Source: Tubulanus polymorphus
Taxonomy: Eukaryota > Animalia > Nemertea
DNA length: 64,000 bases
Assembly: GCF_964204645.1 (NCBI RefSeq)
Contig: NC_134027.1
Span: 25,010,560-25,074,559, forward strand
Direction: 5' to 3'
Shown here: piece by piece, positions 55,701 through 58,700 of the stretch
How positions within the stretch are numbered: position 1 is the first letter of the stretch
Layout of the letters: the number at the start of each line of letters is the position of its first letter
Position numbers and translations under genes: made by a program
The notes under the pieces: model-generated
What the model was told of the DNA's origin: nothing
What the model saw: the letters and a program-made list of their open reading frames with translations, nothing else
Databases searched by the model: none

Positions 55701-58700
55701 GTAATGAGTTTGAATCTCATGATAAGAATGAGAAAAGAGTCAGAATCCATGAGCTAGTAGTTAATTCGATGTTTCGACTGTATCGTAATGAGTCATCTTC
55801 AGTTAAAAGGTTTAATGGACTGAAATATTGCCTTATTTCTCCTTATTCTTCGATTCTAATTTTCAGTCACACGAACGAGACGACGCATTGGTTGGACCCG
55901 CGTTTAGAAAAACTCAAGAAACAAACGGCTAACGATTGTGATACCGACGGTAAGTGAACTTTTGTTCGAATAAATGGGCAAAGGGAAGTCTTTGAGACAC
56001 CTACTCGGCCTTCTTAAAGTCTGCATGTACAACAAAATGTTTGTTTCATTTGAACAGAAAACACATTTTTCATGAAACGTTTTAAGTAAAACTTTTACCC
56101 GTAAACGATAAAACGTTCAATACACACAGCATTAACGCAAACACCAGTTAACAGGGCTACCAAAATGGCGTCCATTTGCAAAACACAAAACTTCCAAACG
56201 CCCGCAGGCTGAAAAACATTTTCGATGACACAAAACATTTTTCTCTTCGGTGTTTTCTGTTTCGACTTCAAAGCCGACAGCATACTAAAACACATCGAAA
56301 ACATTTTTCACGAGGGATAAACTTTTTCCTTGCCGCTTTCGTTGGGCTCATAGCACTGCAGTCGAGTTCAGTTTTCTGTAACTGGAGAATTCATTCTTTC
56401 TCTCTGTATTAACCTATATTTTAAATATGAAGCTGTATCTCCCGATGTACTCATTGGCAGACTGTATGAATAAGTGATGCAGAAATTCCCTGTTGTGCAA
56501 AGAAAAAAATCCTCAAAATGTCATTTACCGCACTGACGAGTTTGCGAAATGTAGGTGGGTTTTTTTTCGGCGTATCATCAATGTTATAACAAACGTTTCA
56601 TTTCTCAGAATTTAGAGAACTGTTTTCAGCGGGTAATGTAACGAATTGTAGCAGCTGATGTAGCTATTGGTCCTCTCCAAAATATAGATAATTCAACTTG
56701 AAAGATTAGGCTTAATTCTGGCACAATCTGCTATTTTTCATACGAACTCATTACATAAAGTGATTATCATTGTAAGCATCGTTAGAAATGATATCAACTT
56801 TATGCATGTAGAGGGTTAACAGATATTTCAAAAGGTGAAGCCGATTTTCAGAGAGGTGCCTGTAAAAGTGAAAGGGGTGTCCGCTGCCCCTCTAAAACCC
56901 CTTGTGACGAACATCGGATGCAATGTGTAAAAACAAAGTAGAAATAAACCCAAATCCGAGAAAAATCTATTCCAAAAATGTAATGAATGTTGAAAAACGT
57001 CATTGAATTCCATGATTTTTTCGAATGAAATCATTAAGCTGTTTTTGCCGTGAGTGTTGTGAGTGTGTGTCGATGTGTTAACGCTGTGAGTGTTGCGAGT
57101 GTGTGTCGATGTGTTAACGCTGCGAGTGTTGCGAGAAGAGATCAATCGTTAAAAGTCTGACGGATTCCACTTAGACTAGGTAATCTATAACCGACATTTT
57201 TACTTCTTACAAATCGATGGATCATCGCTGCTGCTGTCATCTTCATTCTCATTCCCATAATCATCAATCAGTGTCCGCCACCGGTGTCTCGTCCTCGTTT
57301 TTAAACTTCCATCTACGTATGCCTTTTGAGGGCGAAGTCTGGTAATATCCCTGAGGGCCAGTTGTACAGTGCTGGCTTAGATCTGAGACCAGTCAAAGAA
57401 AATATTTGTTCTATAACAAATCTCTCCTTAAGACTAGTCCAAGTTCATACTCATTCCATAGCCAATCTAACAACTTAAGACCAGAAACTAGACTTATGGG
57501 TCATTGTCATTCACATAATGTAGTTAGCCCCCACCCCTACAAAAGGGCCTAAATAATTGCTCGTAAAAAAGGTTGAATCGGGAGATGGCGTTTATTCGGA
57601 CCTCGGTCATTCGCAAAACATCGAGTATCGTTTTCGATATTATGATCGCTATTTCTTATTTTCGCTGCCGACAACGCTGTGGTGAAGATCTCAAAATAAA
57701 CATCACGTTGAAATCACGAGGCGGTTAACCACAGAACGACTATTAAAGACTCATCACACGATCTCCCGAGAGATCTCCGAGAGAAAGAGAGAAACTTCTT
57801 ATGGTGTTTAGAATAAATCATAGCATTTCAGCGAAGGCCGGACCCCGGCAGCAGTTTTCAATCGGTGCCAACAGAACTAGAGAGATAGAGAGAGAGAAAG
57901 AGAGCTGTCTATAATTACTATACAAACATCTGTTCAGAGAGGAATGTATGTTTTTGCTGGTGGCTGATCCTCTCTCTCTCCTCACTCTCTAACCCCTGTA
58001 CTGCGTGTTTCACTGTGTTTAGGGTACCCTCTCTCTGCAGTATAACACAGTACGTTGCTGCTGCTGCTGCGTGTTGATGCACTGTTTCTCGCGTGCGTGC
58101 GATGGGGAAACAGTATTCGGATTGTTGTTTTTTCGCCGGCGGATATATGGGGAATTTTCGCTCGAAAAAGAAGAACAAAAACAAAGGAGATGGAGAAATC
58201 AGAATGGTCAATATAATGACCGCGCCGGACGATGAAGGTTTGTTCTGCTCAGAGAATACTCGGTCGTACTCTTTGTTGCTCTGTTATGGTCTCATTCAGT
58301 CAGGCTATCAGAAGTTTGCAGTAGCCAGTAGATTCAGGGTTCGTAGGTCAACACTTTTTGTAGATGTCCAAAGAGCCAGTTTATAACCCAGTCAATTTAG
58401 ATCTACAAGAGTCCAGAAGTCTGGGCCTGGGAACTATCAAAGGCCTTCTTCAATGACTACGAAAACTATACGATCTGATACGATTAGTTCATGAATTTCT
58501 AAGGAGCCAGTTCACCCATAGATGTGGGTTTATATGTATCCTAGGTGCTGGTTCGGGTGTCCGAGGAGCCTGTTCATTTATAGGAGCCCCGAGGAGCCAG
58601 TTTTCTGCAAACTCCTATGAATAAACCAGTCCTAGATCTCAGGAGAGTCCAGTAGCCAGCTCCTCTATTATAAGCGGTTTCATACCCAGCCCTGCCGTGT

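What the first reader, a model, noticed from the sequence alone, without database searches (positions are those of the whole stretch)
58102..58237. Hidden alternative first exon giving MAGI a lipid-anchored N-terminus, with two in-frame myristoylation starts
Seen: in the intron between WW1 and WW2, an ORF has two in-frame ATGs, each in MGxxxS context. MGKQYSDCC is followed by a Cys pair and [13 protein letters not shown] by a polybasic run. It ends ...APDDE, echoing the acidic DCDTD-E linker of the canonical exon, at a phase-1 donor that joins in frame to E-LPYGWEK (WW2). GA/CT-rich promoter-like sequence lies upstream. Established: myristate plus palmitate and myristate plus polybasic are the two classical membrane-targeting signals of Src-family proteins; canonical MAGIs start with PDZ0/GK. 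Inference: a short MAGI isoform lacking PDZ0, GK and WW1 that is directly membrane-anchored, with start-codon choice selecting the anchor type. I do not know of a described equivalent.
Basis: partly seen in the sequence, partly recalled or inferred. Interest (0 to 1): 0.8.

Follow-up and report, generated by a model that had tools for sequence, protein, structure and literature searches.

The report
Lipid-anchored short MAGI isoform, ribbon worm
An intron of a ribbon worm's MAGI junction-scaffold gene holds what is likely an unannotated start exon that would give a shortened protein with a predicted fatty-acid membrane anchor, a design known from related synaptic scaffolds but not found described for MAGI, though no RNA evidence for it could be obtained.

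Summary
The sequence facts hold. 58102-58237 is an open frame with two in-frame MGxxxS starts (one followed by a Cys pair, one by six basic residues), ending at a phase-1 donor that fits the WW2 acceptor of the Tubulanus MAGI gene. One MG...[ST] frame at such a donor arises in 1-5% of simulated introns, two in frame in 0 of 5000, though a local duplication could explain the pair. The position is credible: 22 of 330 fetched MAGI proteins (molluscs, Lingula) lack WW1 and join WW2 directly, and one clam model starts with MG, Cys and a basic patch. The gene has a second unannotated first exon (45640-45787) with a homologue elsewhere, so its annotation is incomplete. Against: no homologue of the peptide, no junction evidence (untestable here), a weakish donor and no CpG island. 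Best reading: a real alternative first exon giving a myristoylated, WW1-less MAGI (about 0.6). The start-codon 'anchor switch' is speculative (about 0.2), because the first ATG has the better context and already carries all three signals. Short MAGI isoforms and lipid-anchored alternative N-termini of DLG MAGUKs are known; a myristoylated MAGI was not found in print.

The parts
58102..58237 (+). Coding part of the candidate alternative first exon (45 codons + 1 nt), in-frame ATGs at 58102, 58147, 58204, 58216
   Evidence: splicing inferred, not shown
58102..58128 (+). First start: MGKQYS myristoylation-type motif with Cys8-Cys9 (predicted palmitoylation)
   Evidence: consensus in PMC10721952; Lys at position 3 is tolerated in hippocalcin
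58147..58185 (+). Second start: MGNFRSK motif with polybasic run (6 K/R in residues 2-16)
58235..58243 (+). Phase-1 splice donor AAG|GTTTGT, 7 of 9 consensus positions
   Evidence: one of two ATG-led phase-1 donors scoring at least 7 in the 7987-nt intron
57601..58101 (+). GA/CT-rich upstream region, putative internal promoter and 5'UTR; TATAAT at 57910; CpG o/e 1.06 (not an island)
   Evidence: promoter function inferred
57946..58040 (+). Possible 95-nt 5'UTR intron (GTATGT ... CTAAC ... pyrimidine tract, CAG)
   Evidence: sequence signals only
58077..58235 (+). Out-of-frame upstream ORF (52 codons, weak context) overlapping all in-frame starts
63937..63994 (+). WW2 exon, the acceptor shared by canonical and candidate exons
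   Evidence: spliced on both sides in a diverged RNA contig
55867..55949 (+). Canonical exon: second half of WW1 and linker, phase-1 donor
54353..54647 (+). Canonical exon: end of GK part, linker, first half of WW1
50982..51101 (+). Canonical GK exon
45640..45787 (+). Second unannotated candidate first exon (49 codons + 1 nt, one Cys), phase-1 donor, in frame with the GK exon at 50982
   Evidence: homologous to the N-terminus of RefSeq isoform P0216: E 5e-5, 0 of 20000 shuffles; phase
38369..38482 (+). Canonical coding exon 2
37724..38108 (+). Canonical coding exon 1 (PDZ0 region)

Best explanation
This is likely an unannotated alternative first exon of the ribbon-worm MAGI gene that would splice to the WW2 exon and give a short scaffold (WW2 plus the PDZ array, no PDZ0, GK or WW1) predicted to be N-myristoylated and held at a membrane. 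Shown: the frame, the motifs, the matching splice phase, and that relatives use start exons at this same acceptor. Inferred: an internal promoter in the GA/CT-rich region; translation mostly from ATG 58102, giving myristate on Gly2 plus palmitate on Cys8/9 with the basic run at residues 19-28 as extra grip; a smaller share from ATG 58147 (myristate plus basic run, reversible by phosphorylation of the nearby Ser as in MARCKS-type switches). The anchor would let the isoform reach the membrane without the PDZ0/GK/WW1 partners and cluster its PDZ ligands there, as the palmitoylated alpha forms of PSD-95/SAP97 do.
For: Frame, motifs, phase and upstream in-frame stop. Best ATG-led phase-1 donor candidate in the intron: 1 of 2 at 7/9 or better, and the longer of the two frames, 45 against 12 codons. 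Chance 53/5000 to 243/5000 for one MG...[ST] frame, 5 to 26/5000 with K/R at position 7, 0/5000 for two; 0/1500 with five or more basic residues. 22 of 330 MAGI proteins over 600 aa lack WW1 and join WW2 directly, in bivalves, gastropods, a cephalopod-like cluster and Lingula; Mya arenaria models P0063/P0069 start MG-N-S-C-G-K with a basic patch at this acceptor. Cys-rich N-termini occur on arthropod MAGI isoforms at other introns (12 of 149 distinct N-termini have 2 or more Cys in 15 residues). The RefSeq model of this gene is a single isoform that stops inside a PDZ domain and misses the conserved exon at 45640, so absence from annotation means little. Highest GA/CT density upstream; single copy. 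Myristoylation consensus and second-signal rule: PMC10721952; GKQNSK of hippocalcin is myristoylated: PMC4887589.
Against: No homologue of the 45-aa peptide: 0 hits among 1.84 billion representatives, none by word search of longer proteins, no Pfam family, one chance metagenome hit. None of the 12 long isoforms in the closest other cluster (P0105 cluster; Lineus, name recalled from a truncated label) starts in this intron. Only 2 of the 22 WW1-less proteins (one Mya locus) begin with MG, and their likeness to this exon does not go beyond the motif (7172 of 20000 shuffles with the first 11 residues kept; rank 8 of 167 N-termini). The intronic half of the donor (GTTTGT) is weaker than the GTAAGT of the five canonical donors scored. 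Upstream CpG o/e is 1.06 against 1.69 and 2.07 before the other two start exons. Asp at position 7 of the first start is less favourable than Lys (recalled rule). Motif and donor thresholds were chosen after seeing the sequence.
Confidence: 0.58

Rival explanations
1. Chance intronic sequence: an untranscribed or unspliced frame whose motifs arose by accident, the second MG start by a small local duplication.
For: No homologue; not in RefSeq; one MG...[ST] frame with a donor of 6/9 or better appears in 243 of 5000 simulated introns and the scan reads many introns; both starts share ATGGGGAA (the only two copies on the + strand of the window) and the TCG Ser codon, and 58102-58146 resembles 58190-58237 (1 of 5000 shuffles, but 16 of 262 background positions reach that score); introns here are rich in tandem repeats.
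Against: The Cys pair and the basic run are not shared between the two starts, so duplication does not explain them; relatives use start exons in exactly this intron and no other candidate or homologue of their exons was found in it; GA/CT peak directly upstream.
Confidence: 0.25
2. A real first exon, but the protein is not lipid-anchored: transcription starts close to or inside the frame, or ribosomes use ATG 58204 (A at -3, G at +4), giving a soluble WW2-PDZ isoform like most mollusc and Lingula short forms.
For: ATG 58204 has the best context of the four; 20 of 22 WW1-less proteins of relatives do not start with MG; the start site is unmapped.
Against: Two upstream in-frame ATGs with full motifs and second signals would then be accidental (0 of 5000); the GA/CT and TATAAT elements lie 200-500 nt upstream of ATG 58102, which puts both MG starts inside the transcript.
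Confidence: 0.12
3. An unspliced small gene or retained-intron transcript encoding a 94-residue lipid-anchored micropeptide (58102-58386) independent of MAGI.
For: The frame stays open for 94 codons past the donor.
Against: CpG o/e falls from 1.84 in the exon to 0.48 after the donor; the differences seen in the second individual near the exon lie just behind the donor (58263, 58266, 58289); the phase fits the WW2 acceptor exactly; no homologue.
Confidence: 0.05

Closest known systems
Database-only WW1-less MAGI isoforms of molluscs and Lingula, above all Mya arenaria WAR27161.1/WAR27164.1 (P0069/P0063)
   Same: Unique N-terminus joined directly to the WW2 exon, loss of PDZ0, GK and WW1; the Mya model starts with MG, a Cys at position 5 and a basic patch.
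   Different: No significant sequence likeness beyond the motif; the commonest class (12 of 22, MV[LV]xQ... with a Cys-rich end) has no MG and no match in this intron; one start, not two. RNA support for the Mya model was not checked.
C. elegans MAGI-1S and mouse MAGI-2/S-SCAM beta and gamma
   Same: Short MAGI isoforms without PDZ0/GK; MAGI-1S is transcribed independently from an internal exon (PMC2645691, passages; 10.1101/2024.01.30.578033, passages).
   Different: MAGI-1S keeps both WW domains; no lipid anchor is mentioned in the passages seen.
[quoted passage not shown]
   Same: An alternative N-terminal exon swaps a protein-binding module for a lipid anchor and changes localisation (PMC6365469, passages).
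   Different: Other MAGUK subfamily; palmitate only, no myristate; replaces an L27 domain rather than PDZ0-GK-WW1; shown by experiment.
Hck p59/p61
   Same: Two in-frame starts give differently acylated, differently located forms (PMC3798898 passage and reference titles).
   Different: A kinase; its upstream start is a weak CUG that favours leaky scanning (recalled), whereas here the upstream ATG is the stronger; demonstrated there, only possible here.
Cys-rich alternative N-termini of arthropod MAGI isoforms (e.g. P0146, P0181, P0187, P0293, P0118)
   Same: Predicted lipid-anchor tips on MAGI from alternative first exons.
   Different: Palmitoylation-type without the MGxxxS motif; join before the GK or WW1 exons, so WW1 is kept; not homologous.

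Membership tests
MAGI (host gene) | GK followed by two WW and several PDZ domains, PDZ0 in front | tested here: met
   P0002: GK 162-212, 2 WW, 2 PDZ stretches in a truncated model; exon 1 finds only MAGI proteins; six exons map to the window
Alternative first exon | Own start codon, in-frame stop upstream, no usable in-frame acceptor | tested here: met
Alternative first exon | Donor in phase with the downstream acceptor | tested here: met
   phase 1, split Glu codon, 7/9 consensus
Alternative first exon | Spliced transcript containing the junction | not testable with these tools
   no RNA holder listed; the one RNA-like run is diverged
Alternative first exon | Own promoter / transcription start | tested here: inconclusive
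   GA/CT peak and TATAAT present, CpG o/e at the median; no CAGE data
Alternative first exon | Conservation in relatives | tested here: inconclusive
   position conserved (22 of 330); sequence not found; no close relative's genome was searchable
N-myristoyltransferase substrate | Met-Gly-x-x-x-Ser/Thr | tested here: met
   both starts; consensus in PMC10721952
N-myristoyltransferase substrate | Tolerated residue at position 3, basic residue at position 7 | tested here: inconclusive
   second start N3/K7 fits; first start K3 has a precedent but D7 does not fit the preference (recalled); no predictor was available
N-myristoyltransferase substrate | Second membrane signal (Cys or basic cluster) | tested here: met
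   Cys8/Cys9; 6 K/R in residues 2-16 of the second start
N-myristoyltransferase substrate | Myristate actually attached, G2-dependent membrane binding | not testable with these tools
   needs experiment
Hck-type dual initiation with different anchors | Two in-frame starts, each with its own acylation signal | tested here: met
Hck-type dual initiation with different anchors | Weak upstream start that lets ribosomes reach the second | tested here: not met
   ATG 58102 has G at -3 and +4, ATG 58147 has T at -3; judged by the vertebrate rule (recalled)
Hck-type dual initiation with different anchors | Both products made and differently located | not testable with these tools
   needs ribosome profiling and localisation

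The most novel reading that the evidence does not exclude
Invertebrate MAGI genes repeatedly evolved internal start exons that swap N-terminal domains for lipid anchors, and this nemertean exon is a compact anchor selector: one 45-codon exon yields a myristoyl-palmitoyl form (ATG 58102), a myristoyl-polybasic form (ATG 58147) and an unanchored form (ATG 58204) of a WW2-PDZ scaffold, tuned by start-site choice and an overlapping upstream ORF; a myristoylated WW1-less MAGI is shared with clams.
Probability: 0.2. Interest if true: 0.65.

Novelty: new variant of a known kind. Interest (0 to 1): 0.42.

Why it matters
MAGI proteins are taken to reach junctions and synapses through protein partners (in Drosophila through the PDZ half; PMC4830575, passages). 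A directly acylated isoform would add the DLG alpha/beta logic to the MAGI subfamily, and the database evidence gathered here suggests that WW1-less and Cys- or Gly-tipped MAGI isoforms are widespread in invertebrates and unstudied. The isoform class can be tested in oysters or clams with existing RNA data, and the anchor in any cell line. In one non-model species and without RNA proof the finding is of moderate weight.

Tried and rejected
Own genome: none held, so no genome-wide splice-site model or paralogue search. RNA: no RNA holder listed for 57600-58400. Runs X1-X3 behave as DNA (continuous cover through intron-exon borders). X4 laid 0 contigs on 55200-59200 at 90% likeness and 1 contig on the WW2 exon at 80%, spliced from the canonical WW1 exon, with 5 differences in 38 letters and a different linker peptide: it is diverged, and contigs drop rare forms, so it says nothing about the candidate exon. 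Low variation over the exon (X1 0 differences in 57676-58386; X2 0 in 57508-58225) is inconclusive: X1 has difference-free stretches of 431-761 nt elsewhere and 10 of 50 variant rows were not shown. Homology: 0 hits; no usable Atlas hit; 1 of 207 candidate stretches passed, a bacterial contig read on the reverse of an aquaporin-like gene by eye; rejected; only WW hits under 0.9. tblastn of 21 WW1-less N-termini of relatives found nothing meaningful in the WW1-WW2 intron. The alignment with the Mya N-terminus looked suggestive but was rejected by shuffles. Cassette-exon reading rejected. Repeat origin rejected by depth. CpG profile not discriminating (median o/e 1.08). My 7/9 donor filter misses the 45787 donor (6/9), so the chance test was repeated at 5, 6 and 7; the row for the exon-1 donor was off by one base and is not used. 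Of the 22 WW1-less proteins, P0307 looks like a mis-model and P0192, P0046 and P0230 could be models that run in from an intron; they are left in the count. Cluster listings show at most 15 members, so MG-type isoforms in the large oyster, abalone and scallop clusters may have been missed (30 look-ups, 29 clusters), and only the best 120 of 1156 hits were listed. The original Hck paper was not held. Earlier-findings look-ups by place and sequence were empty.

Full report
Observation. The frame 58102-58236 translates as described. It has in-frame ATGs at 58102, 58147, 58204 and 58216, an in-frame TGA at 58075-58077, and an out-of-frame ATG at 58077 whose 52-codon frame overlaps it. The first start reads MGKQYS with Cys8 and Cys9; the second MGNFRSK with 6 K/R in residues 2-16. 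The donor after 58237 is AAG|GTTTGT, phase 1, and completes a Glu codon with the acceptor at 63937, exactly as the canonical donor at 55949 does. Of 8 AG dinucleotides inside the frame, the 4 in phase 1 lack a pyrimidine tract or lie at the donor itself, so an in-frame cassette exon is excluded.

Host gene. Exon 1 is 100% identical to P0002, a RefSeq MAGI of Tubulanus (label truncated to 'Tubulanus po'), a ribbon worm. Six coding exons map to the window. P0002 is the only member of its cluster, lacks the candidate exon, and ends inside a PDZ domain, so the annotation is thin. A second unannotated start exon at 45640-45787 matches the N-terminus of RefSeq isoform P0216 (E 5e-5; 0 of 20000 shuffles; P0216 belongs to the P0105 cluster, Lineus by recall of a truncated label) and is in phase with the GK exon. 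This shows that real start exons of this gene are missing from its annotation.

Chance. In the 7987-nt WW1-WW2 intron only 2 ATG-led frames reach a phase-1 donor with at least 7 of 9 consensus positions; the candidate is the longer; at 6 of 9 there are 11. In 5000 Markov simulations trained on the gene's introns an MG...[ST] frame reached such a donor 53 times (7/9), 243 times (6/9), 568 times (5/9); with K/R at position 7, 5, 26 and 65 times; two such starts in frame 0 times at every threshold. These thresholds were set after seeing the sequence. A caveat: both starts share ATGGGGAA, the only two copies on the + strand of the window, and the TCG codon, and 58102-58146 resembles 58190-58237 (1 of 5000 shuffles; 16 of 262 background positions). 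A decayed local duplication could therefore account for the pair, though not for the Cys pair or the basic run. The stretch is single-copy. GAGAG/CTCTC density just upstream is the highest of 139 windows, but CpG o/e there (1.06) is at the median and lower than before the other two start exons (1.69, 2.07). The five canonical donors scored all have GTAAGT, so the candidate's intronic half is weaker.

Relatives. The peptide has no detectable homologue. The position, however, is used widely: of 395 proteins fetched, 330 are over 600 aa with a WW2 motif, and 22 of these lack WW1 and join WW2 directly. They come from Mya, Dreissena, Crassostrea, Nucella, Elysia, Lingula (named) and clusters that I recall from truncated labels as Mercenaria, Haliotis, other oysters, a scallop and a cephalopod. 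Twelve share a conserved type (MV[LV]xQ or MVLIT start, Cys-rich end), which has no match in this intron. Two models of one Mya locus (P0063, P0069) begin with MG, Asn, Ser, Cys, Gly, Lys and a basic patch, then WW2 and five PDZ domains; their likeness to the Tubulanus exon is limited to the motif, so they are an analogue or an unrecognisable homologue. None of 12 long isoforms in the P0105 cluster starts in this intron. Arthropod isoforms carry Cys-rich tips at other introns (12 of 149 distinct N-termini), which agrees with an earlier scan note (e1-7506352) that I saw only afterwards.

RNA. No RNA holder was listed. The one RNA-like run is diverged and shows only the canonical WW1-WW2 junction in one contig; this cannot speak for or against the exon. 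The junction is untested.

Mechanism. Met-Gly-x-x-x-Ser/Thr is the NMT consensus and myristate needs a second signal, palmitate or a basic cluster (PMC10721952, passages). Lys at position 3 is compatible: hippocalcin GKQNSK is myristoylated (PMC4887589, table). The second start is the better substrate (Lys7; recalled preference), the first has the better initiation context (G at -3 against T at -3). The likely main product therefore starts at 58102 and bears myristoyl motif, Cys pair and basic run together; the 58147 form needs leaky scanning or a downstream start site; ATG 58204 (A at -3) would give an unanchored form. The product would be WW2 plus the PDZ array with a short acylated tip, able to sit at the membrane without PDZ0, GK or WW1 partners. 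Frame, motifs, phase and positional precedent are shown; promoter, splicing, initiation and acylation are inferred. I put the exon at about 0.7-0.75, the anchored isoform at about 0.58 and the start-codon selector at about 0.2.

Comparison with what is known. [quoted passage not shown] PSD-95, SAP97 and PSD-93 have palmitoylated alternative N-termini (PMC6365469, passages). Hck p59/p61 is the precedent for start-codon-dependent acylation (PMC3798898, one passage and reference titles; original not held). Drosophila Magi reaches the membrane through its PDZ half, and that paper has 0 occurrences of myristoyl or palmitoyl (PMC4830575, passages). Searches (listings and abstract starts only, apart from the papers named) showed no paper on a lipid-anchored or WW1-less MAGI isoform; PMC10792917 (MAGI1 and tissue factor, mentions palmitoylation) was seen as a listing only. 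The library lacks most subscription papers, and no supplementary files were read; myristoylome or palmitoylome tables could bear on the novelty claim.

Verdict. Observation confirmed; interpretation partly supported. A new variant of a known kind (alternative N-terminal lipid anchor on a MAGUK scaffold), probable but unproven; interest 0.42.

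Noticed in passing
window 45640-45787 (+): Second unannotated MAGI start exon ([15 protein letters not shown]...), homologous to the N-terminus of RefSeq isoform P0216, phase-1 donor in frame with the GK exon; single Cys in an amphipathic-looking tip; sits in a CpG-rich zone (o/e about 2). 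Better supported by conservation than the finding itself.
   Followed up: partly
P0030, P0050, P0066, P0067, P0096, P0102, P0173, P0241, P0245, P0268, P0290, P0306 (and the end of Lingula P0116): A conserved mollusc-wide class of MAGI start exon joining WW2, with an MV[LV]xQ-type start, a proline run and a Cys-x-Cys...Phe end; possible metal-binding or acylation motif; not found described.
   Followed up: partly
P0240, P0265: Another oyster start exon at the WW2 acceptor, basic and amphipathic (MDGRLK[KR]FFVRRFV...), conserved between two species; a possible non-lipid membrane-binding tip.
   Followed up: no
P0146, P0181, P0187, P0293, P0279, P0131, P0123, P0351; P0118, P0126, P0169, P0180: Arthropod MAGI isoforms with Cys-rich tips, many followed by a shared Y[RE]YEVVYR-like motif; a copepod-like type (MSVSCCLQ) joins before WW1.
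   Followed up: partly
window 57946-58040 (+): Possible 95-nt 5'UTR intron that would remove two upstream ATGs (57944, 57948); GA run at 57880-57902 and CT run at 57970-57991 are complementary and could pair around its donor.
   Followed up: no
window 49601-50400 (+): Second-highest GAGAG/CTCTC peak with CpG o/e 1.7 inside MAGI intron 2; possibly another internal promoter; an MG...[ST] frame starts at 49903 without a strong phase-1 donor.
   Followed up: no
window 2989-17900 (-): Tandem cluster of at least seven similar intronless rhodopsin-type GPCR frames (7tm_1 in 5 of 5 tested), some split into two frames, separated by (AT)n runs.
   Followed up: partly
window 21283-23749 (-): Exons of an FN3-containing adhesion-type gene (fn3 in 1 of 4 frames tested), neuroglian-like by eye, head to head with MAGI.
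   Followed up: partly
window 57344-57611 and 38816-39089: A very high-copy 47-nt repeat family (depth up to 46,255 against about 34) borders the unique region upstream of the candidate exon.
   Followed up: no
run X4, WW2 exon 63951-63988: The RNA-like run filed under the same species label differs at 5 of 38 letters and in the linker peptide, so it seems to come from a diverged lineage.
   Followed up: no
P0002: The RefSeq model ends inside a PDZ domain (1151 aa against about 1400-1700 in relatives), so the 3' part of the gene is split or missing in annotation.
   Followed up: no
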